A stretch of 64,000 bases of DNA from Candidatus Angelobacter sp. (lineage in GTDB: Bacteria; Acidobacteriota; Terriglobia; Terriglobales; Acidobacteriaceae). Of the stretch, positions 8,974 through 30,799 are shown one piece after another. The notes below the pieces were generated by a model. It searched no databases. It was not told the DNA's origin and saw only the letters and a program-made list of their open reading frames with translations. The position numbers were made by a program, and so were the translations under genes. The stretch spans positions 10,189 through 74,188 of the forward strand of contig DASSXL010000219.1 in NCBI GenBank assembly GCA_035703825.1, given 5' to 3'. Numbering within the stretch: position 1 is the first letter of the stretch; every line of letters starts with the position of its first letter.

Positions 8974-9006
8974 AGGCAACAACGAATAATTTTACGATCT
9001 ATCATT

Positions 9007-9735: not shown

Positions 9736-10299
9736 AAGCAAGAACGACTGAGTTCCGCCCGGTGCCTCTCCTCCCCGTCTTTTTTGCGAAGCGTCCGAGA
9801 ATCAGCAATAAGCACTTCAAATTGGAAGTTAGATAATCGAGCAATTTACCAGGTCTGATAACTTTCAATTTTTTCATCCATCTATTGACTCCAACTTCAG
9901 CTTTCGCTTAACATACGCACTGGTTCTCGCCGGTACGCGGCACCGGCGAACCATCGCTAAAAGGTAGTGAGAAACAAACCGGTTAGCGATCCGGGTGGTC
10001 CCAGGGAGGCGGGAACCCCAGAAAGGCCAGCAACCATGCGACCGTCGTCGGCCCATCGTTAGGGTCACAGATTGTGTCGATCTAAATCAGCAGTCTGCAT
10101 TCAGCAATCTGCAATCAGCAAATAATGAAATCCAGGAATTACGTGTGTTTCGGAGCAGGTTCTAGCCGCTAGCTGGTAGCTGCTGGCAAGTCCCGCAGCC
10201 CGCGCCTGCGCTCCACACTTTACTCAAATTGAAGGCCACAAGCAGGAGTGCCTTTGCCACAAAATTCAGGACCTGTTCCACAAATTCAGGAGAAGACGC

Positions 10300-11193: not shown

Positions 11194-11325
11194 CACGGAT
11201 AAACACTGATCGGAATCGGGAAATCGGGAGATCGCACGACATCGGGGAATCGGAGACGCATGAAACACTTGAGCTGTTGTTCTTCCGAGGTCCCGATTAC
11301 CAGATCCTCCGATGACCCGATCCGT
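11187..11325. repeat. Composite word-repeat block (cactgat, aatcggga and ccgatga words)
   Basis: Sequence actgattaacacggataaacactgatcggaatcgggaaatcgggagatcg...cccgattaccagatcctccgatgacccgatc. The same word families occur at 1021, 6243-6367, 38767, 39249 and 52549. Confidence 0.7.
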
Positions 11326-14501: not shown

Positions 14502-14523
14502 TCAGCGCTGGCATGCTGATATT

Positions 14524-14559
14524 TCCGGCTGGTCCTCACGGGCCGGCCGGATTTGTTTT
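14524..14559 (+). terminator. Rho-independent terminator after the TolC-like gene
   Basis: 9 bp stem tccggctgg / ccggccgga (14524-14532 / 14543-14551) followed by tttgtttta. Confidence 0.7.
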
Positions 14560-15976: not shown

Positions 15977-18004
15977 ATGTCGCGTGCACCTGCTTTTGTC
16001 CTGTCGCTTCTCTTGATTTCCGCCTTAAGTCTTGCCGCCAAAGACAAGGATAAGGACAAAGAATCCCCAGGGGGATGGCTGCCCATCACCCAGCAGGACC
16101 TTGCGGTCAGGGAAGTGCCGCACGATCCCGGCGCAGATGCCATCCAGCTCTATATGAGCTATTACAAGGATGACGACGCGAAATTCATCTCCGTTTACAA
16201 GCGCATCAAAATCCTGCGCGAAGGGGCGTTGCAGCCAGAGAGGAAGCTGGTGGATGTGGAGATTCCCATTGAGCCCGGACAATCGTTCAAGGAACTGGCC
16301 GCCCGGACCATTCATCCTGACCAGAAAATCATTGAATTCACAGGGAAGCCGTTTGAAAAAGTGCTGATCAAAACAAGGGGCGTGAAATTCACAGCCAAGA
16401 CCTTCAGTTTGCCGGACGTCACGGTGGGCAGCATTATCGAATACCGGTACAAAGTTGAGTTGCCGCTGGGTGTGGTGAGTACCATTTCCGCATGGCCCGT
16501 CCAGGAAGATCTATTTACGGTAAAGGAAGACCTTCGTTTCCGGGCCTACCAGGGATTAGTGATGGTCCCCACCGAATGGACCAGCGTCGCCCCTAAATCG
16601 AAGGTTGCGTATTCTTACCTGAATCAGATTGACCTTAGCGTGCCGGAGAAGAAGCAGCCAGGCAATCTGATGGAGCTTCATCTGCAGAATGTCCCTAAAT
16701 TTGATGCTGAAGAGTACATGCCTCCGCATGACGATTTTCGTCCCGTCATCCTCTTCTACTATGGCGGCAGAGAGATGTCATCGCCGGAGGGCTTTTGGGA
16801 CGAATGGCAAAAGCTGATCACTGAATATGTGGAGAAATACATCGGCCACTCGCAGGAAATTTATGACGCGGCGGTGAAGGCCGTCGGCGGTGAAACCGAT
16901 CCGGAAAAGAAGCTGCGCAAGTTGTATGCGCGGGCCCAGCAGATCAGGAACCTCTCTTTTGAACGCGAGCGCACCTCGGAAGAAAAAAAACAGGAGCATC
17001 TGAAACGCAACACCAGCACGCAGGAAGTGCTGCAACGTGGCTATGGCACCTCATGGGAAGTGAATGTCGCATTTACGGCGCTGGCTCGCGCCGCCGGGTT
17101 TGAGGCCACGATGCTGGGAGTTTCGGAAAGAAAAAACCGCTCTTTTAACAAGATTATCCTGTGGCTCGGCCAGCTTGATGACAGCGCGGTCATGGTCAGG
17201 CTCGGCGGCAAGGATGTCATTCTGGATCCGGGAACGCGGTTCTGTCCGTTCGGTGTCCTGCGCTGGGAAAACACGGCCACCACGGCGCTGAAATTCAGCA
17301 AGACCGGCGGCGGTTTCATTACCACGCCGGAGCCGGAAAGTTCCTTGTTGCGCCGGACTGCTCATATGTCGCTGGGTGTGGATGGCGCATTGGCGGGCGA
17401 ACTTTCAGTCGACTTCAACGGCGAAGAAGCGCTGGCATACCGCCTGAATGCGCTGGACCAGGATGAGGCCGGCCGGCGCGAGAGCCTGGAAGATGAAGTG
17501 AAAAGCTGGCTTCCCGGCAATGCAGTGGTCAAGCTGCAAGAGGCGCGCGGCTGGGATTCCATGGACGGGCCGCTAACCGCCCGCTTCAAGATTGACATTC
17601 CCGGGTTTGCCTCGACGGCCGGAAAACGTATGGTTTCACCTTCATTCTTTCTTTCTACGCTGCAGAAAGACATGTTCACCAGCCAGGTCCGCCGGTATCC
17701 CATTAGCTTTCCCTACCCGTTTGCTGAAGAAGATGAGCTGATTACGAAATTGCCGGAAGGTTATGGCGTGGAAGCGCCGCCGTACCGCCGCAAAGCGGGC
17801 CTTGCCTATGCGGGTTATGAGATCTCATCCGCGGTGGAGGACCGCCAGCTTGTTACCAAGCGTAAGCTTCGTTTTGAAGGCTCGCTGGTTCCGCTGGAAA
17901 AGTATGAAGAGCTCAGGAACTTTTTCAGCGTGGTGCAGAAAGGCGATGGCGACCAGGCTGTCCTGCAGAAAGAACAAAATGAAAGCTCCCAGAACCAGAA
18001 TTAA
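15977..18004 (+). CDS. Secreted transglutaminase-like paralogue A1 (DUF3857/TGase-core/DUF3858-type architecture from memory; Cys position = Ser)
   Basis: Signal peptide; GGWLPITQQDL, FTGKPFEKV, GSIIEYRYK, YARAQQIRNLSFERERT, RGYGTSWEV..ALARAAGFEA, LDPGTRFCPFG, FFSVVQKGDGDQ. GGAGA lies upstream of the ATG. Confidence 0.8.
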   Translation: MSRAPAFVLSLLLISALSLAAKDKDKDKESPGGWLPITQQDLAVREVPHDPGADAIQLYMSYYKDDDAKFISVYKRIKILREGALQPERKLVDVEIPIEPGQSFKELAARTIHPDQKIIEFTGKPFEKVLIKTRGVKFTAKTFSLPDVTVGSIIEYRYKVELPLGVVSTISAWPVQEDLFTVKEDLRFRAYQGLVMVPTEWTSVAPKSKVAYSYLNQIDLSVPEKKQPGNLMELHLQNVPKFDAEEYMPPHDDFRPVILFYYGGREMSSPEGFWDEWQKLITEYVEKYIGHSQEIYDAAVKAVGGETDPEKKLRKLYARAQQIRNLSFERERTSEEKKQEHLKRNTSTQEVLQRGYGTSWEVNVAFTALARAAGFEATMLGVSERKNRSFNKIILWLGQLDDSAVMVRLGGKDVILDPGTRFCPFGVLRWENTATTALKFSKTGGGFITTPEPESSLLRRTAHMSLGVDGALAGELSVDFNGEEALAYRLNALDQDEAGRRESLEDEVKSWLPGNAVVKLQEARGWDSMDGPLTARFKIDIPGFASTAGKRMVSPSFFLSTLQKDMFTSQVRRYPISFPYPFAEEDELITKLPEGYGVEAPPYRRKAGLAYAGYEISSAVEDRQLVTKRKLRFEGSLVPLEKYEELRNFFSVVQKGDGDQAVLQKEQNESSQNQN

Positions 18005-18089
18005 CCAGCGAAATGGTCCGAGTTCTGGCCACATCGGCTTTGGTGATATATAGTTTGCGGACAAATCCCCCAAATTAGTCTTGAGGTGA

Positions 18090-20060
18090 ATGGTGAATCC
18101 CATGCGGTTGTTCATTGTGTGTGCGCTGTTGGCAGTTTCCGTGGTTCCAGCTTGCGCCCAGAAGGAAGATTGGCTTCCAGTCACGAAGCAGGACTTGGAT
18201 ATCAGAGAAGTTCCCAATAGTCCCGGTGCTGACGCGATACAGCTCTATTACGCCGACTTCATCAATGATGAGCAGCAAACAGAGTTTTTTTACCATCGAA
18301 TCAAAATCCTGAATGAAAGAGGCAATCGCCATGCCGATGTGGAGATCAGCATACCTCAGGACGGTTCAATCTCCGGACTAAAGGCACGCACCATTCATCC
18401 GGACGGCAAGATTATCGAATTCACAGGCAAGCCCTTTCAGAAGACGCTTATCAAGGGGCGTGGGATCAAGGTTCTGGCCAAGGCCTTTACTATGCCTGAT
18501 GTCGCCGTAGGCAGCATCATTGAGTACAAGTACAAAATAGATTGGCCTGGCATCATTACGGATAACTATTGGACCATTCAGCATGAACTGTATACCGTAA
18601 AGGAAAGCTTCCGCATGAAGGCTTATTCCGGCAGGTTGGAGGGCTTTGAAGGCGGCTACCAGGTGGCTGCCCTCTACTCTCATATGCCCAATAACATCAA
18701 GCCCCTGCAAAAAGGTGGCGGCTATGAGCTTGAGGTTACGAACATGCCGGCCTTTGAATCGGAAGGGTATATGCCTCCCGAAGAAGATCTGAAGCCACAA
18801 ATGCGGTTCTTCTATATTGGCACCGGTACCTCCACTCCTGAAAAGTTCTGGCAAGACGCCGGCCGGGGATGGAACGACGAAGTTGACCGTTTCATAGGCA
18901 ACCGCAAAGAGATCAGCCAGGCCGCTGCTCAAGCCATCGGAAATGAAACAGATCCTGACAAGAAACTTCAGGCGCTCTATGCCCGCGCCCAGCAGGTCAG
19001 GAACCTGACCTATGAACGCGAGCGGACTGAACAGGAACAGAAAAAAGAGAACCTGAAAGCGAACCAGAATGTGAACGATGTGCTGGCGCGCGGGGCCGGC
19101 ACCCGCGATGATATAACCCGGCTCTTTGTTGCCCTTGCGCGTGCCGGCGGTTTTGACGCGTCGATTGTGCGCGTGAGCAATCGCAAGGACAAATTCTTTG
19201 ACAAAGGCTTGCTCTCCAAACGGCAGCTTGATAGTGAGATTGCCATCGTCAATCAAGCCGGGAAAGATATTTATCTTGATCCCGGAACCAGGTTTTGTCC
19301 TTACGGTTATCTCCGCTGGATTCGTACTTCAACCATGGGAATCAAGCTGGACAAGAAAGGCGGCGCTTTCGTCACCGCGCCCGGCGCAGGTTATGACCAG
19401 GCCACCACGCGGCGGACCGCGGATATGGCCCTGAATGAAAACGGTGATCTAAAAGGCACGGTCCTTGTCAAATTTGAAGGCGGTGAGGCGCTGGAGCACC
19501 GGCTGGACGAATTGCTCACGGATGACGTTGGCAAGAAAAGCGATTTGGAAGATGAAGTGCGAGGCTGGCTCCCAGCGGGCGCTAACATCAAACTGGCAAA
19601 GGTTGAGGGCTGGGAAGCAGGCGGGAGCCCGCTCATAGCTACCTTCGAGGTTGAGATGGCCAGTTATGCTTCGGTTGTGGGGAAGCGTCTGCTGGTGCCG
19701 GCATATCTCTTTCAGGCCAGACAGATGGATGCGTTCAAGCATGTCGACCGCAAATTCCCCGTCTATTTCCCTTATGCGTTTGGTGAAGTTGATCGCGTTA
19801 ACATCAAAGTCCCGGCTGGATATACGGTGGAAACCGTTCCGCAGAAGCAATCCGCGCGCCTGCGTTACGCAGGGTACCAAAATCTGGTCCAGTTTGACGG
19901 TAAACAACTGGTCACGCAAAGGGTCTTGGAAATCAATGGCATCTTCTTCCGTTTGGAACTATATCCGGAAATGAAAGATTTTTTTGGGAAGGTCCGGGCC
20001 GGTGATGAACAGCAAGCCGTTCTGACGGGAGGCTCTTCCAATGCTCAAAAAAGCAATTAG
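18090..20060 (+). CDS. Secreted transglutaminase-like paralogue A2 (Cys position = Arg)
   Basis: Signal peptide; EDWLPVTKQDL, FTGKPFQKT, GSIIEYKYK, YARAQQVRNLTYERERT, RGAGTRDDI..ALARAGGFDA, LDPGTRFCPYG, FFGKVRAGDEQQ. Alternative start at 18102. Confidence 0.8.
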   Translation: MVNPMRLFIVCALLAVSVVPACAQKEDWLPVTKQDLDIREVPNSPGADAIQLYYADFINDEQQTEFFYHRIKILNERGNRHADVEISIPQDGSISGLKARTIHPDGKIIEFTGKPFQKTLIKGRGIKVLAKAFTMPDVAVGSIIEYKYKIDWPGIITDNYWTIQHELYTVKESFRMKAYSGRLEGFEGGYQVAALYSHMPNNIKPLQKGGGYELEVTNMPAFESEGYMPPEEDLKPQMRFFYIGTGTSTPEKFWQDAGRGWNDEVDRFIGNRKEISQAAAQAIGNETDPDKKLQALYARAQQVRNLTYERERTEQEQKKENLKANQNVNDVLARGAGTRDDITRLFVALARAGGFDASIVRVSNRKDKFFDKGLLSKRQLDSEIAIVNQAGKDIYLDPGTRFCPYGYLRWIRTSTMGIKLDKKGGAFVTAPGAGYDQATTRRTADMALNENGDLKGTVLVKFEGGEALEHRLDELLTDDVGKKSDLEDEVRGWLPAGANIKLAKVEGWEAGGSPLIATFEVEMASYASVVGKRLLVPAYLFQARQMDAFKHVDRKFPVYFPYAFGEVDRVNIKVPAGYTVETVPQKQSARLRYAGYQNLVQFDGKQLVTQRVLEINGIFFRLELYPEMKDFFGKVRAGDEQQAVLTGGSSNAQKSN

Positions 20061-20424
20061 CGCGCTCGTTCAAAATCCTGCGCACCGAGGAAAAGAATAC
20101 GCCCAGCACGAGGTTCCTTTGATGCTGAACCAAGAATCGAACAGCCAAAAAAGCTGTTTGCCCAGATCCTGCTGAAGAAAGCGAACTAGCCCGAACAGCA
20201 GCAGTCTGGATAGGACCTGGAATCCTGCAAAGGCTGCCAGGCTTGTTGCGAACCGCAATGCGGGTGGGATTTTCGCAGCCCCCTTTTGTAAGAAGCGATG
20301 AATGCTTTTCCTCATCGTCCGCGGAATGTGGAAACCCTCAAGACAGGATGGTATAGTCCGTTCTGGTATCCTCGCCGGATACTCCATTCCGGACACACGC
20401 AAGAACAAACGCAACGGTGACCTG

Positions 20425-22428
20425 ATGCGACTGCGCGGCCAGTTCTTTTTGCGGTTTATCTTTCTCGCGTTACCGGTGTTTTCCAGCGCGCAGAATTTGG
20501 ACTGGCTTCCAATCACCTCTCAGGACCTGAAAATCAATCAAGTTCCCGGCGCGCCCGGCGCTTCTGCCATCCAGCTTTATTACGCCGATTACATCGACGA
20601 CGAGGCGCAGACAGAGTTCTATTATCGCCGTATCAAGGTCCTGAACGACAAAGGGAACAGCTACGCCGACGTGGAGATTGTCATCCCGCCTGACGCTTCT
20701 ATTAGCGGATTGAAGGCCCGCACCGTCCATCCCGACGGGAAAATCATTGAATTTACCGGCAAGCCTTTTCAGAAAGTGATTGCCAAGGGCCGCGGCGTAA
20801 AGATTCTGGCCAAGGCCTTCACCATGCCTGAAGTCACTGTGGGCAGCATCATTGAATACAAGTACAAAGTGGATTTGCCCGGTATTTTTCTCGATAACTC
20901 GTGGACCATCCAGCACGATCTTTATACGGTGAAGGAAAGCTTTCGCATGAAGCCCTTTGGCGGCCTGCTGGAAGGCTTTGAGAAGGGGCACCAGGTGGCC
21001 GCGCTCTCTTCGCACATGCCGGACAATCTGAAGCCGCGGCAGACGGGCGGAGGCTATGAGCTGGAAGTCCAGAACATGCCTGCTTTTGTCGCGGAAGGCT
21101 ATATGCCTCCGGAAGAAGATTATCAGCCGCAGATCCGGTTTTTTTACGGAGGACGCGAGATCATCAGTCCGGAAAAGTTCTGGCAGGACGCGGGCCGCGG
21201 CTGGAACGACCTTGCCGAACGCTTTATCGGCAATCGGCGCGAGATAGCCCAGGAGTCTGCCCGCATCATTGGCGATGAGGCCAACTCCCTGCACAAACTG
21301 CGCCGGCTCTATGCCCGCGCGCAACAAGTCCGCAACCTTTCGTATGAGCGTGAGCGCACCGCGGAAGAGGAGAAAAGAGAGAATCTCAAGCCCGCGCAGA
21401 GCGCCGGGGACGTGCTTGATCGCGGCTACGGCGACCGTGATGACATCACCCGTTTTTTTGTGGCGATGGCCCGTGCCGCTGGATTTGAGGCTTCAATTCT
21501 GCGCGTCAGCAACCGCCAGGAGAGGTTCTTTGATCGCGGCCTGCTGTCCAGACGGCAGTTGGATGCCGAGATAGCGCAGGTTGATCTGGACGGGCAGAAC
21601 CTCTTCCTCGATCCCGGCACACGTTTTTGCCCCTTCGGGCTAGTGCGCTGGACGCGAACTTCTTCCATGGCGCTGAAGCTGGACAAAAAGGGCGGCTCGT
21701 TCATCAAAGTGCCTTCCGCCGGATACGAAAAGGCCATGGTGCGCCGCTCCGCGGAAATGGCGCTCACCGCCGATGGCTCATTGAAAGGCACAATCACCGC
21801 CCGGTTTGAAGGCGGTGAGGCGCTGGAACGGAGACTCGAGGCCGTTATAACCGACGAGGCCGGAAGAAAAGAGGCCCTGGAAGAGGAAGCCAAAGACTGG
21901 CTTCCCGGTGGCGCCTTGGTCAAGTTAACCGCCAGCCTGGGATGGGAAGGAAACGAGGAACCGCTGGTTGCCACCTTTGCCGTTGAGCTTCCGGCCTATG
22001 CTTCCGTCGCCGGCAGAAAGCTGCTGGTGCCTGCTGACGTGTTTCAGTCCAGGCAAATGGATACCTTCAAGCATTCAGAGCGCAAATACCCAGTGTATTT
22101 TCCCTATGCTTTCGGAGAAGCAGACCGCATTGTGATCCAGGGAGTTCCGGGCTACACGGCTGAAACGGTTCCCACCCAACAGTCCAGTAGTCTGGCATAC
22201 GCTACCTATTTCAATGAGTCCCGCTTCGATGGCAAACAACTGGTCACGGAAAGGGTATTGCAGGTGAATGGCATCTTCTTTCAACCAGAGCGCTATGCTG
22301 AGATAAAGGATTTCTTCAGGAAAGTACAGCTCGGCGACGAACAACAAGTGGTCTTTCAAGGTAGCCCTGATCGCGCAGGCGGGATACCTTCTTCATCTCA
22401 AGCCCGACCAATAGAGGGCTTGCTCTAA
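20425..22428 (+). CDS. Secreted transglutaminase-like paralogue A3 (Cys position = Arg)
   Basis: The track ORF starts at 20302, but the signal peptide MRLRGQFFLRFIFLALPVFSSAQ begins at ATG 20425. Motifs as in A2, which looks like the closest paralogue by eye. Divergent C-terminal tail. Confidence 0.8.
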   Translation: MRLRGQFFLRFIFLALPVFSSAQNLDWLPITSQDLKINQVPGAPGASAIQLYYADYIDDEAQTEFYYRRIKVLNDKGNSYADVEIVIPPDASISGLKARTVHPDGKIIEFTGKPFQKVIAKGRGVKILAKAFTMPEVTVGSIIEYKYKVDLPGIFLDNSWTIQHDLYTVKESFRMKPFGGLLEGFEKGHQVAALSSHMPDNLKPRQTGGGYELEVQNMPAFVAEGYMPPEEDYQPQIRFFYGGREIISPEKFWQDAGRGWNDLAERFIGNRREIAQESARIIGDEANSLHKLRRLYARAQQVRNLSYERERTAEEEKRENLKPAQSAGDVLDRGYGDRDDITRFFVAMARAAGFEASILRVSNRQERFFDRGLLSRRQLDAEIAQVDLDGQNLFLDPGTRFCPFGLVRWTRTSSMALKLDKKGGSFIKVPSAGYEKAMVRRSAEMALTADGSLKGTITARFEGGEALERRLEAVITDEAGRKEALEEEAKDWLPGGALVKLTASLGWEGNEEPLVATFAVELPAYASVAGRKLLVPADVFQSRQMDTFKHSERKYPVYFPYAFGEADRIVIQGVPGYTAETVPTQQSSSLAYATYFNESRFDGKQLVTERVLQVNGIFFQPERYAEIKDFFRKVQLGDEQQVVFQGSPDRAGGIPSSSQARPIEGLL

Positions 22429-22690
22429 AGCAAACGTCTGGAATGAGTTGAGGGCTGCGGCCTGCCACGCGCCGGAGGGACAGAGCAAGCTGGGCCCCGA
22501 AACTCAGGCGGTTGGGAGCGAATCGGCAAAGTTAGAACACCTTAAGTTCTAAATAATTACAGCCCTCCACGAGCAGGAACTCTGGTCAAATCTCCCGTTT
22601 TGGTGTATATCTTTTCTTCCCCCTTGTGCCCACGTCCCAAAACTTGGGATTTCTATGAACTTAACTAGTCGAGGTTTTTAGTCGAGGTTA

Positions 22691-24733
22691 ATGAGGTTTT
22701 TTATGACGCGAATCGCGCGATATTTTTCGCTGGCCGTTTGCTTTTTGGTCTCGCTTGGCTCATTGGCACAAAAGGAAGACTGGCTGCCGGTAACGCCCCA
22801 GGACCTGCAATACAAGGAGGTGCCGGGCAACAAGGGCGCTTCGGCGGTAAGGCTCTACTATGCCCAGTACATCAATGACAATAACTCGTCCTGCTTTGTT
22901 TATGAGCGGATCAAGATCCTGAATGAGAAGGCGCTTGCGGGTGGCAATAGCTATGCGGATGTCGAAATTCCGATTCTGACTTTCGGCGGCATTGTCGAAA
23001 CCATCACCGAACTGAAGGCGCGCACGATTAAGCCGGACGGCTCTATTGTTGAATTTTCGGGCAAACCCTTCGAAAAAGTCGTTTTTAAGGGCAGGGGAGA
23101 CAAATTCTCTGTTCAGGCTTTTAGTATGCCCGCTGTCGAAGTCGGCAGCATCATTGAGTACAAATACCGGGCAGTGGTTTCAACCCCCGGTTTAGAGTTT
23201 GTCAAGGTCTTCGCGCGCGACTCATGGGACATCCAGAGAGAACTCTTCACGGTGAAAGAGAGCCTTTACTATCAGCCATTCGGTGGAACTGCTTTCCAGA
23301 GCAACGCCAGGCCCCAGTTTTATTTTGATGGCGCTCGGGTCAGCCGTGTGAGCATGAACCTGAAAGAAAAACCCAAGGAAACCGGCAATGATGTTTCGCT
23401 GGAGTTGACGAATGTCGCCGCCTTTGAGCGGGAAGAGTACATGCCTCCCGAAGACATTTACAAACCCAGCGTAATCTTCTTTTATGGCCGCAAGGGCAAT
23501 CCTTCTGTGGATAAGGAATGGGAGGACATCGGAAAGGACCGCTACGAAGAGCTTGAAACATTTATGGCGGCCAATAAAGGTGTGAAGGAAGCCGCCCAAG
23601 CCGCTATCGGTGGGGAGACCGAGCCGGGAATGAAATTGCGCAAGCTTTATGAGCGGGCCCAGGCGATCCGGAACCTTACCTTTGAGCGCGAGCGTACCAA
23701 GGAAGAACGCAAGGCTGAAAACATACAAAAGAACAACGGCGTAGGCGACGTGCTGGCCCATGGCTACGGCTACGAAGATGGCATCACCTATCTATTTGTC
23801 GCCATGGCGCGCGCCGCCGGTTTTGATGCTTCCGTCGTCCAGGTTTCTGATCGCAAAAGGCGCTTCTTTGTAAAAAACTGGACATCGTTGCGGCAGCTTG
23901 AGAGCGAAATTGCCGTCGTGAACCTTAACGGCAGTGAGATCTATCTTGAGCCGGGTATCCGTTTTTGTCCTTATGGGACTGTTCGCTGGAACCATACCGT
24001 CACTGAGGGATTGAAGCTGGAGAAGAAAGGCGGTTCGTTTGTGAAGGCGCCGCCGCTCACCTATGACAAGTCCGTTACCCGTCGCACGGCAACTATGTCT
24101 ATGGGTGAAGATGGAACGCTGAAGGGCGATGTCGTTCTTGAATTCGAGGGAACTGAAGCGCTCGAACACCGCCTGGATGCGATTGACAGCGATGATGCCG
24201 GACGCAAAAAAAACCTGGAGGACGAACTCAAGCAATGGCTGCCTACAGGCGCCATTGTCAAAATGGCAGTTGCGCAGGGATGGGACACTACTGGCGGTCC
24301 GCTGGTGGCGCGCTTCAACGTCGAGTTGCCGAATTATGCCACTCTGGCCGGTAAGCGGCTCCTGATCCCGGCTTTTCTCTTTCTGTCGAAGGAAAACCGG
24401 GCTTTTGCGCATTCCCAACGCAAGTATCCCGTCTATTTCCCCTATCCTTTCACGGATTCTGATTCCGTGACCATCAAGGTCCCTTCGGGCTTCACCCTGG
24501 AGAGCGTTCCCACCGCGCAGGACGCCAAGCTGGGCGGCACTGCCCGCTACCAAAACGTGAGCAACTTTGATGGAACTCAATTGGTCAGCCAGCGGCAACT
24601 GGCCTTCAACGGAATATATTTTGATGTGGATAAATATTCGGAATTGAAGTCTTTCTTCGGTAAAGTCCAGGCCGGCGACGAACAGCAAGCCGTACTGCAT
24701 GGAGGTAACGTCAGTGCTCAAAAAGGCAATTAA
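22691..24733 (+). CDS. Secreted transglutaminase-like paralogue A4 (Cys position = Glu)
   Basis: Signal peptide; EDWLPVTPQDL, FSGKPFEKV, GSIIEYKYR, YERAQAIRNLTFERERT, HGYGYEDGI..AMARAAGFDA, LEPGIRFCPYG, FFGKVQAGDEQQ. Confidence 0.8.
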   Translation: MRFFMTRIARYFSLAVCFLVSLGSLAQKEDWLPVTPQDLQYKEVPGNKGASAVRLYYAQYINDNNSSCFVYERIKILNEKALAGGNSYADVEIPILTFGGIVETITELKARTIKPDGSIVEFSGKPFEKVVFKGRGDKFSVQAFSMPAVEVGSIIEYKYRAVVSTPGLEFVKVFARDSWDIQRELFTVKESLYYQPFGGTAFQSNARPQFYFDGARVSRVSMNLKEKPKETGNDVSLELTNVAAFEREEYMPPEDIYKPSVIFFYGRKGNPSVDKEWEDIGKDRYEELETFMAANKGVKEAAQAAIGGETEPGMKLRKLYERAQAIRNLTFERERTKEERKAENIQKNNGVGDVLAHGYGYEDGITYLFVAMARAAGFDASVVQVSDRKRRFFVKNWTSLRQLESEIAVVNLNGSEIYLEPGIRFCPYGTVRWNHTVTEGLKLEKKGGSFVKAPPLTYDKSVTRRTATMSMGEDGTLKGDVVLEFEGTEALEHRLDAIDSDDAGRKKNLEDELKQWLPTGAIVKMAVAQGWDTTGGPLVARFNVELPNYATLAGKRLLIPAFLFLSKENRAFAHSQRKYPVYFPYPFTDSDSVTIKVPSGFTLESVPTAQDAKLGGTARYQNVSNFDGTQLVSQRQLAFNGIYFDVDKYSELKSFFGKVQAGDEQQAVLHGGNVSAQKGN

Positions 24734-26678
24734 CACGACTTTTCTTCTTGCTCTCTTTATCAGTCTTTCCAGCTTGGCCCAGGCTGAAGTTCCGGAATGG
24801 TTGCGGAATCTGGCTCGCCAGCCCGCCAAAACTTATGCGGATGACGTGAATGCCGCAATCCTTTTGGATGACAACGTCACCACCGTAAAGGAAAATGGCG
24901 ACATCGTTCACCATGGGCGTCGGGCCTGGCGGGTCCTGCGTCCCGAGGGCAGAAATCGCTATTCGGGGTTTGCGCGGGAATACAACGCCGACTCCAAGGT
25001 CAACTATCTCCATGGCTGGAGCATTACCAGCAAGGGCCAGGAATACGAAACGAAATCGAGCGACATCATCGAGCAGAATATCAGTACCTTTGAGGTCTAT
25101 TCCGATGCCAAGATCAAGGGGGCCCGCGTGCCGGGGGTCGATGTCGGGACCGTCGTGGGTTTCGAATACGAAACCCTGGAGCATCCGTATACTTTTGATG
25201 ATGTTTGGAGATTTCAAGAAACTGAGCCCGTGGAGCACTCCCACTATGAATTGCATCTGGCATCAGGCTGGCGATTCAAGACGGAATGGATGAACCACAA
25301 GGAAGAGAAGCCGACTGAAGAAGGCGGAGCGATTCAGTGGCAGCTCGCTGACATTCCCCGTATTGAAAATGAGCCGCAACGGCCGCCTGAGTCTGGGCTG
25401 GCCGGCAGTGTGGTGTTTACTTTCTTTAACGACAAGATACCTTCCAAAAGCTACCGGAACTGGTCAGAGCTTGGTACCTGGTTCACGCAGCTTTCTTCCG
25501 CTGTCAGAGATTCAAGCCCGGCCTTGACCCAAAAGGTGCAGGAACTGGCCCCGGCGAATCTTCCCCTGGTTGAGCGCATCAAAGCCTTGGCCGGCTTTGC
25601 TCAGCGTGACGTCCGCTACGTCGCCATTTCGATTGGGGTCGGCGGCCTTCGTCCCCACAATGCGACGGATATCTTCAATCACCGTTATGGCGATTGCAAA
25701 GACAAAGCCACCGTTCTGAGCTCCATGCTGGCGCAGATCGGCGTAAAGTCCTATTACATCATCGTGAATGACGAGCGCGGTGTGGTCACCAAGGATACTC
25801 CCGCTAACCCTAACGGGTTTAACCATATGATTCTGGCCATCGCTCTGCCTGCGGCCAGCTATTCCAAGCCGCTGCCCGCCATGTACGAGCATCCCAAACT
25901 CGGGCATTTGCTGATCTTTGATCCCACGAATGAATATGTGCCCTTTGGACAGATTCCTCCCTACGAACAGGACAATTATGGCCTGCTGGTGGGAGAGCAG
26001 GGTGGGGAACTGATCAACATGCCGCTCAGCCTGCCGGAAGCCAATGGTGTAAGGCGCAGTGCCAAGCTAAAGCTGCTGCCCGATGGCACATTGCAAGGCG
26101 AGGTCGAAGAAAGATATACAGGCTTCTATGCCTACCGAGGCAGGTTATTTCTCCAGCACGAATCCGAAAATGATCGCAAGAAGATGATGGAGCGTCTGGT
26201 GGCTAGTTCTCTAGGCAGTTTCCAACTCGAAAAGTATGAGCTGGTCAATGCTGATGATATCGATCAGGACCTTATCATCCGCTTTAACTTCAGCGCGGCC
26301 CATTACGCCAAGAACGCCGGGCCCATGCTGCTGGTCCGTCCGCGCGTGCTGGGCGAACTGGCTGGGCCGTGGGACCCCAACAAGCCCCGCCACTACGCTT
26401 ACGAGTTCCGCGGGCCTTTCCTGGACCGCGACACCGTGGAGATCTCCCTGCCGGAGGGTTTCAAGGTCGACGAGCTGCCTGATCCAGCCAAGGCCACCTT
26501 CCCGTTTGCGGAATATGTGAGCAAGACGGAAAGCGCGGAGGGCGTGCTGAAATACACGCGGGAATACAAGCAGACGGCCACGCAGGTATCCATGGACCAG
26601 ATGGACCAGCTCAAGAAGCTCTTCGGCCAGATCAACCTGGACGAAAAGAACATGGCTGTGCTGAAGCGCGTGAACTAG
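24714..26678 (+). CDS. Secreted transglutaminase-like paralogue B1 (Cys/His/Asp pattern retained)
   Basis: GGAGG at 24701-24705 sits 8 nt before GTG 24714 (MLKKAINTTFLLALFISLSSLAQA); an in-frame ATG alternative lies at 24699. It overlaps the A4 stop (24733). Motifs RYGDCKDKATVLSSMLAQIGV (TGC at 25695-25697), GFNHMILAI and LLIFDPT. Confidence 0.8.
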   Translation: MLKKAINTTFLLALFISLSSLAQAEVPEWLRNLARQPAKTYADDVNAAILLDDNVTTVKENGDIVHHGRRAWRVLRPEGRNRYSGFAREYNADSKVNYLHGWSITSKGQEYETKSSDIIEQNISTFEVYSDAKIKGARVPGVDVGTVVGFEYETLEHPYTFDDVWRFQETEPVEHSHYELHLASGWRFKTEWMNHKEEKPTEEGGAIQWQLADIPRIENEPQRPPESGLAGSVVFTFFNDKIPSKSYRNWSELGTWFTQLSSAVRDSSPALTQKVQELAPANLPLVERIKALAGFAQRDVRYVAISIGVGGLRPHNATDIFNHRYGDCKDKATVLSSMLAQIGVKSYYIIVNDERGVVTKDTPANPNGFNHMILAIALPAASYSKPLPAMYEHPKLGHLLIFDPTNEYVPFGQIPPYEQDNYGLLVGEQGGELINMPLSLPEANGVRRSAKLKLLPDGTLQGEVEERYTGFYAYRGRLFLQHESENDRKKMMERLVASSLGSFQLEKYELVNADDIDQDLIIRFNFSAAHYAKNAGPMLLVRPRVLGELAGPWDPNKPRHYAYEFRGPFLDRDTVEISLPEGFKVDELPDPAKATFPFAEYVSKTESAEGVLKYTREYKQTATQVSMDQMDQLKKLFGQINLDEKNMAVLKRVN

Positions 26679-26781
26679 CTCTGCAATTGCGCCATGCCCC
26701 TTAATGCAGCCGGCGCGATCAAAGAGCAAACTGCTTGTTGCAGATGCAACGGCACGCGGTTCGTAAAGGAGTGACCACCAA

Positions 26782-28746
26782 ATGCGCAAAGACAGAATTA
26801 GCGCGACATTCTTCGTCTTTGTGTTACTCAGCGCGGTCTCACATCCGGCGTCCGCTTCGGTGCCGGACTGGCTGCGCGGCGCAGCCCAGCAGTCCACCAA
26901 GACCTATGCCAGTGACGTCAATGCCGTAGTCCTGTTCAGTGAAACTGAAGCTACGGTCAAGGACAGTGGCGAAACCGTGACCCGCGAGCGCCGCGTGATC
27001 AAGGTATTGCGTCCAGAAGGCCGCCATGAGGCGTTCCAGGGAGTGCCTTTCGACGAAGAAACCCGGCTGAACTATTTCAAGGGCTGGAGCATCAGCGCTA
27101 GGGGCGTGGAATACGAAGCCAAGAAGGAAGATGTTGCTGAGGTCGGCGCAGGCGAAGGCTATGAGGTGTACTCTGACGCCAAAGCCAAGGTGATGCGGAT
27201 TCCGGGGGTGGATGTCGGCACTGTCGTAGGGATCGAATGGGAACAAAAGAAGCATCCATATACTTTTGAGGACCATTGGTTTTTCCAGTTCCACCAGCCC
27301 GTGGCGCGGGCCCGATTTATTTTGCACCTGCCCGCCGGCTGGGAATACCGTGCCACTTGGCTTCATTACGCGGAGCAGGCGCCCCAAATTGAAGGCAATA
27401 CTTATGTTTGGGCGCTCTCTGATCTTCCCCGGATCGAGACAGAGAACGAGATGCCGCACTGGCGCGCCCTGGCAGGCCAGCTCATCGTTACATATTTTTC
27501 AGAGAAGACCAGGGGACGCTCCTACTCAAGTTGGAGCGATTTCGGAGCGTGGTATGGCCAGCTCACCTCCGGTCTGCGCGATCCTTCGCCTGCCCTGCAG
27601 CAGAAAGTACAGGAGCTGGCCCCGGCTTCTCTGCCACTGCTTGATCGCATCAAGGCCCTGGCCCGCTTTGCCCAGCGTGATGTCCGTTATGCGGCCATCG
27701 AAATCGGGATCGGAGGACTGCAGCCGCATCCGGCGAGCCAGGTGTTCAGCAATCGCTACGGCGACTGCAAGGACAAAGCCACCGTGCTGAGCGCGATGCT
27801 GGCGCAGATCGGGGTCAAGTCCTATTACATACCGGTTCACACCGACCGCGGAATTTACACAGAGAAGACCCCGCCGACCATGGGCTTCAATCATGTGATT
27901 CTTGCCATCCAGGTGCCCGAGGCCAGTTTTAAGGGTTCATTTCCAGCCCTGTATGAACATCCCAAGCTGGGCCATCTGTTGATCTTCGATCCCACATCCA
28001 GCGTCGTCCCTCTTGGCCAGATCCCTTCTTATGAGCAGGACAACTATGGGCTGCTGGTGACCGATCAGGGTGGCGAGCTGATCCACCTGCCGCTCAGCTC
28101 TCCTGAACTGAACAAGATCTCGCGTACCGCCAGGCTGTCATTGCTGTCCGATGGAAGTCTGCAGGGCGAGGTGACCGAGGTGCGCAGCGGCTGGCTGGCT
28201 GCGGCGGGGCGCTATGCGTTTGAGCATCAGACGATTGCCGACCGGCGCAAGATTCTGGAGCGCTTTCTCGGCCGCATGATGGGCAATTTCCAGCTGGACA
28301 GCGTGGACGCGGAGAATCTTGACGACATTGAGAAGGACCTGGTGATTCACTACAAATTCACGGCCGATCATTATGCCAAGAATGCCGGATCGCTGTTGCT
28401 GGTGCGTCCACGGGTATTGGGAGAGAAGCTTGGGAGCCTGGATATGACTAAGCCGCGTCATTACCCCTACGAGTTTGACGCGCCCACCCTGCAAACTGAC
28501 GTTTTCGAATTCAACCTGCCTGACGGTTACAAGATCGATGAGCTGCCCGAGGCTGCCAAGGCAACCTTCGCCTTCGGAGAGTACAACAGCAGGATTGAAA
28601 ACGCAGGCACGCTGCTGAAGTACAGCCGTGAATACAAGATCAACGCCGTGAGAGTCCTGCCGGAGAAAATTGACGATCTGGGCAAATTCTTCCACCGGAT
28701 CAATCAGGACGAACGAAACATGGCTGTGCTCAAGAAGGCCAATTAG
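26782..28746 (+). CDS. Secreted transglutaminase-like paralogue B2 (Cys/His/Asp pattern retained)
   Basis: Signal peptide; VPDWLRGAAQQ; RYGDCKDKATVLSAMLAQIGV (TGC at 27766-27768), GFNHVILAI, LLIFDPT. Collinear with B1 throughout. Confidence 0.8.
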   Translation: MRKDRISATFFVFVLLSAVSHPASASVPDWLRGAAQQSTKTYASDVNAVVLFSETEATVKDSGETVTRERRVIKVLRPEGRHEAFQGVPFDEETRLNYFKGWSISARGVEYEAKKEDVAEVGAGEGYEVYSDAKAKVMRIPGVDVGTVVGIEWEQKKHPYTFEDHWFFQFHQPVARARFILHLPAGWEYRATWLHYAEQAPQIEGNTYVWALSDLPRIETENEMPHWRALAGQLIVTYFSEKTRGRSYSSWSDFGAWYGQLTSGLRDPSPALQQKVQELAPASLPLLDRIKALARFAQRDVRYAAIEIGIGGLQPHPASQVFSNRYGDCKDKATVLSAMLAQIGVKSYYIPVHTDRGIYTEKTPPTMGFNHVILAIQVPEASFKGSFPALYEHPKLGHLLIFDPTSSVVPLGQIPSYEQDNYGLLVTDQGGELIHLPLSSPELNKISRTARLSLLSDGSLQGEVTEVRSGWLAAAGRYAFEHQTIADRRKILERFLGRMMGNFQLDSVDAENLDDIEKDLVIHYKFTADHYAKNAGSLLLVRPRVLGEKLGSLDMTKPRHYPYEFDAPTLQTDVFEFNLPDGYKIDELPEAAKATFAFGEYNSRIENAGTLLKYSREYKINAVRVLPEKIDDLGKFFHRINQDERNMAVLKKAN

Positions 28747-28801
28747 CAATCGGGAGACTCGGCGCAAGTTCCCGGGCAACCCGCGGTTCCGGAGTTTTTG
28801 A

Positions 28802-30751
28802 ATGTCGTTGTCAAATTGCGTAAGAAAGGCATGGCTGGCGGCCTTGTTGTTGTTTCCGCTGCTGTGCGCGGGCCAGGGGCGCCCCTGGCTGCCTGTTGAT
28901 CCCAAAGACCTGCAGATGAAGGAGCTGCAGCAGATTCCCGGGGCCCAGGCGTCCCTCCTTTACTACGCCGACGAAATCGACGATACCAGCCATAACGAAT
29001 TCCTCTACTCCCGGATCAAGATCTTCAGTGACGGCGGCAAGCAGTATGCCAACGTCGAGATACCTTTGCTCGAGAAATTCTCGGTTGAGAACCTGGCCGC
29101 CCGCATCATTCACGCCGACGGAAAGATCGTGGAGACGGCAGTGCACCCGTTTGAAAAGGTGGTCCTCAAAGGAAAAGGTCTGCGAGTGCGCGTGCAGGCC
29201 TTTACTCTCGCGGATGTAACGGCGGGCGACATTATTGAGTATCAATATCAGCTCCATCAGGGCGACAAGGGGTTGTACCACCATCATTGGGAGGTGCAGC
29301 ACGACCTCTTTGCTGTGAAGGAACATTTTCTTTTCAAATACAACAAACAATACTCGGTCCGATGGCTGCCCTCCGCCGGCCTTCAGCAAAGCCCCCAGCA
29401 CGATCTGAAGGCCAACACCCTGGAGATGGATTCCGAGAATGTGCCGCCCTTTGAAGCGGAAGAGCAAATGCCGCCGGTGGCGGCCTACAAGTGGGAGGTC
29501 AAATTTTTCTATACCTCGCCATTCATGAGTTCTCCTTCCTCTTACTGGTATGAGATTGGACGAGGCGTCTCCCGCTGGCTTGATCAATACGTGGGCAATG
29601 CCAAGGAGATCGCCAGTGAAGCCGCGGCGGTCGTCGGGACTGAAACTGACCCTGAGAAGAAGCTGCGCAAGCTGTATGCCCGGGCCCAGGAGATCAGAAA
29701 CCTCAGCTACGAACGTCATCGCACGGAGAAAGAGCGGAAGAACGAAGAGCTCAAGGAAAACAAGAATGCCGTCAACGTTCTCCACCATGGTTACGGGGAT
29801 CGACATGAGATCACCCGCCTTTTTGTTGCCCTGGCCAGAGGCGCAGGCTTCACGGCATCGGTTGTTTTCGTGTCCAGCCGCGAGTCAAGGTTGTTCGATC
29901 GCGAGGTCCTCTCTTTTTCGCAATTGGATTCTGAAATCGCGCGCGTGCGGCTCAATGGCAAGGACATTTTCCTTGATCCAGGAACCCGCTTCTGTCCTTA
30001 CGGGCTGATGCGCTGGATGCGTACCGGAACGGCTGCCATGGACATGGCCGATCCCGGACAATTCATTTCTACACCGGGCGCGCCGGAGGACAGCGCCATC
30101 ATCGAGCGAAGCGCCGAGCTGAAGCTGGATACTGAGGGAGCGGTCAAGGGTGAAGTGCGGATCGAGTTCGAGGGCCTGGAAGCGCTCGAGCGTCGCCTCT
30201 CCGCGCTGGATACGGATGACGCCGGCCGCAAGAAAGAGCTGGAGGACGAAGTAAAGCTGTGGCTCCCCGCCAATGCCAAAGTGGAGATGGAAGATGTCGT
30301 CGGATGGGAAAAGGAGTACGAGCCGCTGACCGCCGTCTTCAAGGTTGAAGTGCCGGAGTTTGCCTCCGCAGCGGGCAAGCGGCTGATGGTTCCTACCGCC
30401 TTGTTTCAACCCAAGCAGAAACGCGTGTTGAAGAGTGGAACCAGGAGGTTCCCGGTCTATTACAACTACGCGTTCAGTGAAAATGATCACATGAACCTGC
30501 AACTGCCGGAAGGCTACGGCCTTGAGACGTTGGCTTCGCCGCAGACCGCCGCCACCAAATTTGCCCGATACACGACCAATGCGGCCGCCACCGGGCCATA
30601 CGTGAATCTTGACCGGTCGCTCAGGTTCAACGGGGTCTTCTTCCAGCCGGACCGTTACGAGGAATTGAGGCTTTTCTTTGCCAAGGTCCAGGCTGGAGAT
30701 GAACTGCAAACCGTTGTACGGCAATCGCCCGCTGAATCCAAGGCGCACTAA
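28802..30751 (+). CDS. Secreted transglutaminase-like paralogue A5 (Cys position = Arg)
   Basis: Signal peptide; RPWLPVDPKDL, GDIIEYQYQ, YARAQEIRNLSYERHRT, HGYGDRHEI..ALARGAGFTA, LDPGTRFCPYG, FFAKVQAGDELQ. Confidence 0.8.
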   Translation: MSLSNCVRKAWLAALLLFPLLCAGQGRPWLPVDPKDLQMKELQQIPGAQASLLYYADEIDDTSHNEFLYSRIKIFSDGGKQYANVEIPLLEKFSVENLAARIIHADGKIVETAVHPFEKVVLKGKGLRVRVQAFTLADVTAGDIIEYQYQLHQGDKGLYHHHWEVQHDLFAVKEHFLFKYNKQYSVRWLPSAGLQQSPQHDLKANTLEMDSENVPPFEAEEQMPPVAAYKWEVKFFYTSPFMSSPSSYWYEIGRGVSRWLDQYVGNAKEIASEAAAVVGTETDPEKKLRKLYARAQEIRNLSYERHRTEKERKNEELKENKNAVNVLHHGYGDRHEITRLFVALARGAGFTASVVFVSSRESRLFDREVLSFSQLDSEIARVRLNGKDIFLDPGTRFCPYGLMRWMRTGTAAMDMADPGQFISTPGAPEDSAIIERSAELKLDTEGAVKGEVRIEFEGLEALERRLSALDTDDAGRKKELEDEVKLWLPANAKVEMEDVVGWEKEYEPLTAVFKVEVPEFASAAGKRLMVPTALFQPKQKRVLKSGTRRFPVYYNYAFSENDHMNLQLPEGYGLETLASPQTAATKFARYTTNAAATGPYVNLDRSLRFNGVFFQPDRYEELRLFFAKVQAGDELQTVVRQSPAESKAH

Positions 30752-30799
30752 GGCGGTTTGGTAACGCTCTGACCTTGCCGTGGCTTTTCCGCATCTTCT

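What the first reader, a model, noticed from the sequence alone, without database searches (positions are those of the whole stretch)
15977..30751. Five predicted catalytically dead and two predicted active paralogues within the array
In B1 and B2 the papain-like transglutaminase signature is intact. The Cys sits in GDCKD (TGC at 25695-25697 and 27766-27768), the His in GFNH[MV], and the Asp in IFDPT. At the position aligned to that Cys, the A-type proteins read GTS (A1), GTR (A2), GDR (A3), GYE (A4) and GDR (A5). I can find no His at the equivalent downstream position, while the Asp-containing LDPG block is kept. The surrounding helix (..A[LM]ARA[AG]GF[ED]A) is strongly conserved. This argues for retained structure and binding without catalysis, that is, pseudoenzymes co-encoded with their active relatives.
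Basis: partly seen in the sequence, partly recalled or inferred. Interest (0 to 1): 0.65.

Follow-up and report, generated by a model that had tools for sequence, protein, structure and literature searches.

The report
Dead and live transglutaminase-like paralogues, gene-coupled
A soil acidobacterium carries seven tandem genes for exported transglutaminase-like proteins: two keep the Cys-His-Asp catalytic centre and five belong to an old, selectively maintained clade that lost it, and across many genomes a "dead" gene overlaps a "live" one by a fixed 20 bases, which suggests the two work together.

Summary
Seven + strand paralogues (15977-30751) all have the DUF3857 + transglutaminase-core architecture. 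Full-length models of A2 and B1 match PDB 3KD4.

**Catalytic residues.** B1 and B2 carry Cys/His/Asp at the stated codons. A1-A5 have S/R/R/E/R at the Cys column and D/S/A/S/S at the His column. A profile-profile alignment and the secondary-structure register of the AlphaFold models place these columns the same way.

**The loss is old and maintained.**
- None of 141 diverse A-type representatives and none of 129 A-type ORFs from related loci has the Cys. All 48 B-type ORFs keep C, H and D.
- No conserved His column exists in the A clade. Its single conserved Cys aligns with a Val in B and is replaced in 26% of representatives.
- dN/dS of A genes is 0.05-0.15, the same as for B genes, so they are not decaying.

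**New here.**
- At 59 of 62 A→B junctions the B start lies a fixed 20 nt inside the 3' end of A, with a Shine-Dalgarno site inside A. This also holds in distant Acidobacteriota at unrelated loci.
- A and B partners split into matching lineages.
- A relic B start remains after A2.

**Reading.** A-types are pseudoenzyme partners of B-type cysteine enzymes. Function and physical interaction are untested. Interest is moderate.

The parts
15977..18004 (+). A1, a Cys-less DUF3857/transglutaminase-like paralogue (675 aa, Sec-type signal peptide). Triad columns are S359/D402/D417.
   Evidence: ORF; Pfam; triad columns; orthologues with dN/dS 0.09-0.14.
18090..20060 (+). A2, a Cys-less paralogue (656 aa). 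Triad columns are R339/S382/D397. Its lone conserved Cys is C403.
   Evidence: AlphaFold model pLDDT 87.5, top structural match 3KD4. More than 2000 homologues in Candidatus Angelobacter/Terriglobales.
20027..20175 (+). Relic of an A2·B junction. It has GGGAGG at 20027-20032 and ATG at 20041, overlapping the A2 stop by 20 nt. It encodes MLKKAISAL, the conserved B-type N-terminus, then diverges into a 44-codon ORF with no hydrophobic core.
   Evidence: Sequence. The alignment to intact A2·B2 junctions in L007, L008 and L021 shows that homology ends just after the A2 stop. Translation.
20425..22428 (+). A3, a Cys-less paralogue. Triad columns are R/A/D. The ORF opens at 20302, but the signal peptide starts at the Met at 20425.
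   Evidence: Orthologue in L006 with dN/dS 0.10.
22691..24733 (+). A4, a Cys-less paralogue. Triad columns are E362/S405/E420. Its last 20 nt overlap the start of B1.
   Evidence: A4·B1 is adjacent in 17 related loci.
24701..24733 (+). A4/B1 coupling junction. GGAGG at 24701-24705 lies inside the A4 coding sequence. The B1 GTG start is at 24714 and the A4 stop at 24731-24733, giving a 20-nt overlap.
   Evidence: Sequence, homologous starts. The distance from the A stop to the B Trp codon is 61-73 nt in 59 of 62 junctions.
24714..26678 (+). B1, a paralogue with an intact C333/H376/D408 triad (codons 25695-25697, 25824-25826, 25920-25922). An alternative ATG start lies at 24699.
   Evidence: AlphaFold model pLDDT 86.9, with Cys at the N-terminus of helix 333-346. 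3KD4 TM-score 0.78.
26782..28746 (+). B2, a paralogue with an intact C329/H371/D403 triad (codons 27766-27768, 27892-27894, 27988-27990). In this genome it is no longer overlapped by an A gene.
28802..30751 (+). A5, a Cys-less paralogue. Triad columns are R334/S377/D392.
   Evidence: Orthologues in L006, L025 and L027.
12333..14501 (+). TolC-like outer-membrane efflux protein (OEP), the conserved upstream neighbour of the array. A strong terminator-like hairpin follows it at 14524-14551.
   Evidence: Pfam OEP E 8e-41. Synteny. Hairpin.

Best explanation
The array encodes two kinds of exported DUF3857 / transglutaminase-core / C-terminal-domain proteins of the 3KD4 architecture.

**B-type (B1, B2).** These are predicted papain-like Cys-His-Asp enzymes, either proteases or transglutaminases.

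**A-type (A1-A5).** These belong to an old sister clade that keeps the whole fold but has lost the nucleophile and the general base. They are pseudoenzymes with respect to the ancestral chemistry. Purifying selection maintains them as strongly as the B-types.

**Proposed mechanism.** The working unit is an A·B gene pair. The B start codon and its Shine-Dalgarno site lie inside the last 20 nt of the A gene, so B translation is coupled to A translation and the two proteins are made together. Most likely A acts as a non-catalytic partner of B in the cell envelope, in substrate recognition, scaffolding or regulation. The extra unpaired A paralogues would then diversify that non-catalytic role.

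**Shown:** loss of Cys and His across the clade, fold retention in models, purifying selection, the conserved overlap, and cognate A/B lineages.

**Inferred:** export, B activity, the A-B physical partnership, and the biological substrate.
For: **Architecture.**
- Pfam DUF3857 + Transglut_core hits in all seven proteins.
- The A2 and B1 AlphaFold models (pLDDT 87.5 and 86.9) both match 3KD4 over their full length, with target-normalised TM-scores of 0.69 and 0.78.

**Triad.**
- B1 C333/H376/D408 and B2 C329/H371/D403.
- A-types read S/R/R/E/R at the Cys column and D/S/A/S/S at the His column.
- hhalign of the A profile against the B profile: probability 100%, E 1.5e-47.
- No Cys in 141 representatives or 129 locus ORFs of A-type. 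All 48 B-type ORFs keep C, H and D.
- No conserved His column in the A clade.

**Selection.**
- dN/dS is 0.05-0.15 for A and 0.035-0.135 for B, including the close pair in L006 (dS 0.05-0.10) and the mid-distance L007 (dS 0.7-0.8).
- The A clade has its own near-invariant residues that B lacks: R70, R100, Y297, R351, R365, W410.

**Coupling.**
- The distance from the A stop to the B Trp codon is 61-73 nt in 59 of 62 A→B junctions. The median is 231 nt for A→A and 139 nt for B→A.
- GGAGG lies 8 nt before the B1 GTG, inside A4.
- Two distant Acidobacteriota contigs (L088 is named Candidatus Acidiferrales) keep an overlapping A·B pair in unrelated neighbourhoods.
- The deep split among A partners matches the deep split among B partners (29+14, no mismatches; distance correlation r 0.77, with 0 of 999 permutations reaching it).

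**Transcription.** Soil metatranscriptome contigs at 95% identity or more lie on A1, A2, A4, B1, B2 and A5.
Against: - No activity or interaction was measured.
- A genes outnumber B genes. In this window A1, A2, A3 and A5 are not overlapped with a B, and B2 is uncoupled.
- One distant A-type gene (L087) has no B neighbour. The partnership therefore cannot be strictly 1:1 or obligate.
- The Mantel correlation is partly explained by shared species phylogeny.
- Metatranscriptome contigs can contain DNA and are short.
- Several Pfam Transglut_core scores are below the curated cut-off: A3 21.3, A4 22.9, B1 19.2 and B2 22.2, against 23.
Confidence: 0.6

Rival explanations
1. A-types and B-types work independently. 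The A clade has a separate non-enzymatic job in the envelope, such as ligand binding or adhesion. The A·B overlap reflects only operon compaction inherited from an ancestral tandem duplication.
For: A genes occur without an adjacent B (L087; A1, A2, A3 and A5 here). B2 is functional-looking yet uncoupled in this window. A has its own invariant residues.
Against: The 20-nt overlap is held almost invariant in 59 of 62 junctions, and it persists in distant lineages at different loci. A and B partners keep cognate lineages. Mere compaction would not be expected to keep this so strictly while A→A and B→A spacers vary widely.
Confidence: 0.2
2. A-types are substrates or building blocks of the B enzymes. 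For example, a B-type transglutaminase might process or cross-link them into an envelope or extracellular matrix, as transglutaminases cross-link structural proteins elsewhere.
For: A proteins are numerous relative to B, and all have signal-peptide-like N-termini. Co-production through the overlap would also suit an enzyme and its substrate.
Against: No direct evidence supports this. Substrates do not normally share the enzyme's full three-domain fold at about 20% identity over 620 aligned columns. No conserved cleavage or cross-link motif was identified.
Confidence: 0.1
3. A-types are still enzymes, using a relocated or different active site and a new chemistry. 'Dead' would then be wrong.
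For: Clade-specific near-invariant polar residues (R70, K72, R100, Y297, R351, R365, D478). The Asp column is 96% conserved. A lone Cys six residues after that Asp is kept in 74% of representatives and in 124 of 129 close ORFs.
Against: That Cys is replaced by Ala, Thr, Tyr, Ser, Leu, Val or Phe in 36 of 141 representatives and aligns with a conserved Val in B, which fits a structural position. No His is conserved anywhere in the clade. The Asp sits in a D-P turn that B shares.
Confidence: 0.1

Closest known systems
BDI_1141 of Parabacteroides distasonis (PDB 3KD4, 'putative protease', structural-genomics entry)
   Same: It has the same full-length three-domain architecture. It is the top Foldseek hit for both models (E 1.8e-26 and 3.5e-30; TM-score 0.69 and 0.78). 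It is also the only PDB sequence hit of the family profile (E 2.9e-8). At the catalytic Cys column it reads YGTP where B reads YGDC, so like the A-types it lacks the Cys.
   Different: About 12% identity, from Bacteroidota, with no known function. Whether it has a Cys-bearing partner gene was not testable here. Its His and Asp columns were not covered by the alignment.
Transglutaminase-like cysteine protease superfamily (Pfam Transglut_core PF01841, clan CA). Examples are the Cytophaga hutchinsonii 3ISR protein and the periplasmic protease LapG, 4FGQ
   Same: B1 and B2 have the superfamily's Cys-His-Asp triad. The Cys opens a helix and the His and Asp lie on or next to adjacent strands. 3ISR is a structural hit. 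The triad definition and the superfamily membership of 3KD4, 3ISR and 4FGQ come from PMC4866520.
   Different: The proteins here add DUF3857 and a C-terminal domain. The A-types lack Cys and His. The Pfam scores of B1 and B2 are below the curated cut-off. No activity is known.
Inactive transglutaminase-fold proteins, such as erythrocyte band 4.2 and Rad4/XPC versus PNGase (from my own knowledge of Makarova et al. 1999 and Anantharaman et al. 2001; not checked here)
   Same: A transglutaminase fold kept under selection after loss of the catalytic Cys and reused for binding.
   Different: Those are eukaryotic and are not encoded as overlapping gene pairs with an active paralogue.
Paralogous dead-subunit activators, such as the trypanosomatid AdoMetDC 'prozyme' and the degenerate LytM factors EnvC/NlpD that activate amidases (from my own knowledge; not checked here)
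   Same: A catalytically dead relative is proposed to partner with an active enzyme. This works like the proposal made here.
   Different: The folds and chemistry are unrelated. The physical A·B interaction here is only inferred from gene coupling.

Membership tests
Transglutaminase-like cysteine protease superfamily (Transglut_core, PF01841) | Sequence match to PF01841 at or above the curated cut-off (23 bits) | tested here: inconclusive
   A1 25.6, A2 24.3 and A5 27.1 bits pass. A3 21.3, A4 22.9, B1 19.2 and B2 22.2 fall just below.
Transglutaminase-like cysteine protease superfamily (Transglut_core, PF01841) | Papain-like core fold, with the nucleophile at a helix N-terminus and His/Asp on or next to adjacent strands | tested here: met
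   B1 has C333 at the start of helix 333-346, H376 at the start of strand 376-382 and D408 after strand 402-407. A2 has the same elements (helix 339-352, strands 382-389 and 392-396). 3KD4 and 3ISR are structural hits. Residue-level superposition was not possible.
Transglutaminase-like cysteine protease superfamily (Transglut_core, PF01841) | Catalytic triad Cys-His-Asp/Glu (definition in PMC4866520), B-type proteins | tested here: met
   B1 C333/H376/D408 and B2 C329/H371/D403. All 48 related B ORFs keep all three.
Transglutaminase-like cysteine protease superfamily (Transglut_core, PF01841) | Catalytic triad Cys-His-Asp/Glu, A-type proteins | tested here: not met
   The Cys column reads S/R/R/E/R and the His column D/S/A/S/S. 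No Cys in 141 or in 129 A-type sequences. hhalign confirms the columns. A-types are homologues of the superfamily but not catalytic members.
Transglutaminase-like cysteine protease superfamily (Transglut_core, PF01841) | Measured protease, transglutaminase or related activity | not testable with these tools
   Needs biochemistry.
DUF3857 / transglutaminase core / C-terminal domain architecture (3KD4-like) | Pfam DUF3857 (PF12969) match at or above the 24.6-bit cut-off | tested here: met
   A2 36.3, A3 36.9, A4 31.8, A5 38.8, B1 78.7 and B2 81.7 bits. A1 at 22.9 is just below.
DUF3857 / transglutaminase core / C-terminal domain architecture (3KD4-like) | Full-length structural match to 3KD4 | tested here: met
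   A2 model: E 1.8e-26, target-normalised TM-score 0.69. B1 model: E 3.5e-30, TM-score 0.78. Only A2 and B1 were modelled.
Pseudoenzyme (homologue of an enzyme without its catalytic residues, kept by selection) | Catalytic residues missing across the clade, not only in one gene | tested here: met
Pseudoenzyme (homologue of an enzyme without its catalytic residues, kept by selection) | Purifying selection and intact reading frames | tested here: met
   dN/dS is 0.05-0.15 for A orthologues. All five are full-length ORFs. In the L002 MAG, A1 and A2 are split, which may be assembly error or decay.
Pseudoenzyme (homologue of an enzyme without its catalytic residues, kept by selection) | Demonstrated lack of the ancestral activity | not testable with these tools
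   Needs an assay.
Enzyme-pseudoenzyme partner pair | Conserved genetic coupling of dead and live paralogues | tested here: met
   A fixed 20-nt overlap in 59 of 62 junctions, also seen in distant lineages. Partner lineages are cognate.
Enzyme-pseudoenzyme partner pair | Physical complex, or functional dependence of B on A | not testable with these tools
   No multimer prediction or experiment was available.

The most novel reading that the evidence does not exclude
A·B is an obligate two-subunit envelope enzyme that is widespread in Acidobacteriota. The Cys-less paralogue would be an essential non-catalytic subunit that activates the Cys-His-Asp subunit or selects its substrate. The extra A paralogues in the array (up to five here) would be interchangeable subunits that retarget one or two catalytic subunits to different substrates. 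That would be a bacterial 'prozyme'-like system with combinatorial specificity.
Probability: 0.25. Interest if true: 0.7.

Novelty: new variant of a known kind. Interest (0 to 1): 0.5.

Why it matters
DUF3857/transglutaminase-like proteins form a very large family with no characterised member. There are 7771 representative clusters at 50% identity, and the literature search found only passing mentions. The family is abundant in Acidobacteriota, a dominant soil phylum.

This work shows that the family splits cleanly into a catalytic lineage and an old, selected, Cys-less lineage, and that the two are encoded as a translationally coupled unit. That gives a concrete experimental handle:
- express A4 with B1;
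- mutate C333;
- test whether B depends on A.

It also warns that annotations such as 'putative protease', including the one on the only solved structure (3KD4), do not fit the Cys-less members.

Tried and rejected
- **Single-sequence PDB searches.** B1 gave nothing and A2 gave only chance hits.
- **B-only profile against PDB.** It found nothing. Only the mixed A+B profile reached 3KD4.
- **NCBIfam.** No family matched any of the seven proteins.
- **Metagenome scan.** A closer 15-sequence alignment worked.
- **3D distance of the A-type Cys.** I wanted to measure how far the conserved A-type Cys lies from the vestigial active site. Model coordinates are not exposed to the scripting tool, so I relied on alignment, secondary-structure register and substitution patterns.
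- **Promoter and terminator scan.** Counts were not above shuffled expectation. The only convincing site is the hairpin after the OEP gene, so the transcription units inside the array remain undefined.
- **Relocated active site.** I considered whether the conserved 'RFCP' Cys is a relocated nucleophile and rejected it as unlikely.
- **Recent duplication.** I considered whether the array is a recent local amplification and rejected it. Paralogues are 44-65% identical with saturated dS, and each has its own orthologues at 70-99% identity in other genomes.
- **Spurious ORFs.** Long antisense ORFs inside the array, such as 23792-24829 and 29885-31144 on the - strand, were treated as artefacts opposite real genes.

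Full report
**1. What is there**

The region 15977-30751 holds seven consecutive + strand ORFs of 649-708 aa. All seven match Pfam DUF3857 (PF12969) and Transglut_core (PF01841), some just below the curated cut-offs. NCBIfam has no model for them.

They fall into two groups.
- A1, A2, A3, A4 and A5 are 44-65% identical to each other.
- B1 and B2 are 55% identical to each other.
- A and B share about 20-26% identity over their aligned stretches.

Each protein starts with a basic, then hydrophobic, then small-x-small segment that looks like a Sec signal peptide. It ends just before a conserved [DE]W[LP] motif (read by eye; no predictor was available).

The organism is an acidobacterium. Close homologues are named Candidatus Angelobacter / Terriglobales, and the DNA occurs in soil and rhizosphere metagenomes.

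**2.

The TGC codons are at 25695-25697 (B1 C333) and 27766-27768 (B2 C329). The His and Asp are at B1 H376/D408 and B2 H371/D403.

| Protein | Cys column | His column | Asp column |
|---|---|---|---|
| A1 | S359 | D402 | D417 |
| A2 | R339 | S382 | D397 |
| A3 | R | A | D |
| A4 | E362 | S405 | E420 |
| A5 | R334 | S377 | D392 |

Minor corrections to the finding:
- A4 reads LEPG, not LDPG.
- The A5 helix is ALARGAGFTA.
- A3 probably starts at 20425.
- B1 probably starts at GTG 24714.

**3. Rigorous placement of the catalytic columns**

A profile of 54 diverse A-type sequences was aligned to a profile of 30 B-type sequences with hhalign. The result was probability 100%, E 1.5e-47 and 621 aligned columns. 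B's GDCKD Cys and FNH His fall on unconserved A columns, B's FDPT Asp falls on A's LDPG, and A's conserved Cys falls on B's Val.

AlphaFold2 models of A2 (pLDDT 87.5) and B1 (pLDDT 86.9) show the same order of secondary-structure elements.
- B1 C333 and A2 R339 open the core helix.
- H376 and S382 open the next core strand.
- D408 and D397 follow the strand after that.

Both models match PDB 3KD4 (BDI_1141, 'putative protease') over their full length (TM-score 0.69 and 0.78). Both also hit the Cytophaga transglutaminase-like protein 3ISR. [quoted passage not shown] It defines the triad as Cys-His-Asp/Glu.

3KD4 itself reads A-Y-G-T-P where B reads R-Y-G-D-C. The only solved structure of this architecture is therefore also Cys-less.

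**4. The loss is clade-wide and old**

An exhaustive search found 7771 representative clusters (50% identity) related to A2.

Among the 141 best full-length representatives (32-64% identical to A2):
- The Cys column holds G, R, A, S, H, P and others, but never Cys.
- The His column is His in 4.
- The Asp column is Asp in 135.

In 86 related loci, none of 129 full-length A ORFs has the Cys and 2 have the His. All 48 B ORFs have C, H and D.

No A-clade column reaches even 40% His. The only Cys-rich column is A2 C403, at 74%. Ala, Thr, Tyr, Ser, Leu, Val or Phe replace it in 36 of 141 representatives. A relocated Cys/His dyad is therefore unlikely, although I could not measure 3D distances because no coordinates were available.

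The A clade has its own near-invariant residues that B lacks: R70, R100, Y297, R351, R365 and W410. This points to a constrained function of its own.

**5. Selection**

Nei-Gojobori dN/dS against orthologues in other contigs:

| Genes | dN/dS |
|---|---|
| A genes | 0.05-0.15 |
| B genes | 0.035-0.135 |
| Neighbouring methylmalonyl-CoA mutase | 0.013-0.03 |

This holds at low divergence (L006, dS 0.05-0.10: A3 0.10, A4 0.10, A5 0.08, B1 0.14, B2 0.04). It also holds at moderate divergence (L007, dS 0.7-0.8: A1 0.12, A2 0.11). A genes are constrained as strongly as B genes.

Paralogue pairs are saturated at synonymous sites, and each paralogue has its own orthologues. The array is therefore not a recent amplification.

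Soil metatranscriptome contigs at 95% identity or more lie on A1, A2, A4, B1, B2 and A5. This is weak evidence: the contigs are short, DNA carry-over is possible, and A3 was not covered.

**6. Locus organisation: the A·B unit**

In related genomes the array sits between a TolC-like OEP gene and the mutase gene. It holds two to seven copies, always on one strand.

The distance from the stop of an A gene to the conserved Trp codon of the following B gene is 61-73 nt in 59 of 62 junctions, and most often exactly 64 nt. The A→A median is 231 nt (range 50-2490) and the B→A median is 139 nt. Because the B signal peptide needs about 29 codons before that Trp, the B start must lie inside A.

In the window:
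- GGAGG is at 24701-24705.
- The B1 GTG start is at 24714.
- The A4 stop ends at 24733, giving a 20-nt overlap.
- Relatives have ATG at the homologous position.

Two distant Acidobacteriota contigs, L088 (named Candidatus Acidiferrales) and L089, were reached through relatives of P0388, an A-type representative 32% identical to A2. Both carry an A gene overlapped by a GDCKD/FNH/FDPT B gene in completely different neighbourhoods. A third contig, L087, has a solitary A.

Among 43 full-length pairs, the deepest split of A partners coincides with the deepest split of B partners (29+14, no mismatch). The distance matrices correlate at r 0.77, and 0 of 999 permutations reached that value. Shared phylogeny contributes to the correlation. 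The A·B unit has therefore duplicated and been inherited as a unit.

**7. A scar in this window**

After A2 the conserved junction is still present. GGGAGG is at 20027-20032 and ATG is at 20041, 20 nt before the A2 stop. It encodes MLKKAISAL, the typical B N-terminus. Homology to intact A2·B2 junctions then ends, and the frame runs 44 codons without a hydrophobic core.

B2 now lies 6.7 kb downstream with its own Shine-Dalgarno site and a homologous but diverged start (MRKDRISA...). The segment A3-A4·B1 therefore now separates an ancestral A2·B2 pair.

**8. Interpretation**

B-types are predicted exported Cys-His-Asp enzymes. A-types are exported pseudoenzymes with respect to that chemistry, kept by selection and co-produced with B through translational coupling. 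The most likely mechanism is a non-catalytic partner role for A, in substrate recognition, scaffolding or regulation (confidence about 0.6).

The pairing cannot be strictly 1:1, because A genes outnumber B genes and solitary A genes exist.

Rivals:
- independent functions with the overlap as a historical residue (0.2);
- A proteins as substrates or cross-linked building blocks of B (0.1);
- A as enzymes with a new active site (0.1).

**9. Novelty**

Inactive transglutaminase-fold proteins and enzyme/pseudoenzyme pairs are known concepts (own knowledge). The domain architecture is catalogued in Pfam and the PDB. I found no published description of the clean active/inactive split of this family or of the conserved overlapping A·B unit. 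I rate it a new variant of a known kind, of moderate interest.

Noticed in passing
window 20027-20175: A relic 5' end of a B-type gene sits right after A2. It has a Shine-Dalgarno site, an ATG overlapping the A2 stop by 20 nt and the codons for MLKKAISAL, after which homology is lost. This shows that A2 was once coupled to a B gene, probably the B2 lineage, now 6.7 kb away.
   Followed up: yes
window 20302-20424: The A3 ORF opens 41 codons upstream of the Met that begins its signal peptide (ATG 20425). The extension (MLFLIVRGMWKPSRQDG...) has no counterpart in the other paralogues and is probably not translated.
   Followed up: partly
window 14918-15835: A 305-aa PD40/WD40-like beta-propeller protein with a signal-peptide-like N-terminus lies between the OEP gene and A1. 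It was not found in any of the 86 related loci screened by blastp, so this spacer is variable.
   Followed up: partly
window 12333-14551: The TolC-like OEP (722 aa) has a long Gln/Ala/Gly-rich N-terminal extension. A 12-bp G+C-rich hairpin with a T tail follows it at 14524-14551. This suggests it is transcribed separately from the array, even though the two are adjacent in many genomes.
   Followed up: partly
window ~6900-11200: A low-GC stretch (GC 0.46-0.52 against about 0.57 elsewhere) carries an IS200-like Y1 transposase fragment (7052-7462, - strand), an HNH-repeat protein (10300-11190) and several ORFs with no Pfam match. The gene content differs from the corresponding region of L007, so it is probably a small mobile insertion.
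   Followed up: partly
L002 819-2646 and 5774-7839: In one Candidatus Angelobacter MAG the A1 and A2 orthologues are each split into two overlapping ORFs. This could be MAG assembly error or real pseudogenisation of unpaired A copies. The paired A4·B1 in the same locus is intact.
   Followed up: no
L087 10001-11998: A distant A-type gene (reads YASWFD at the Cys column) stands alone with no B-type neighbour within 10 kb on either side. The A clade can therefore exist without an adjacent B gene.
   Followed up: partly
window 23792-24829 and 29885-31144 (- strand): Long antisense ORFs (345 and 419 aa) lie opposite A4/B1 and A5/mutase. They are most likely by-products of G+C-rich coding sequence on the other strand.
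   Followed up: no
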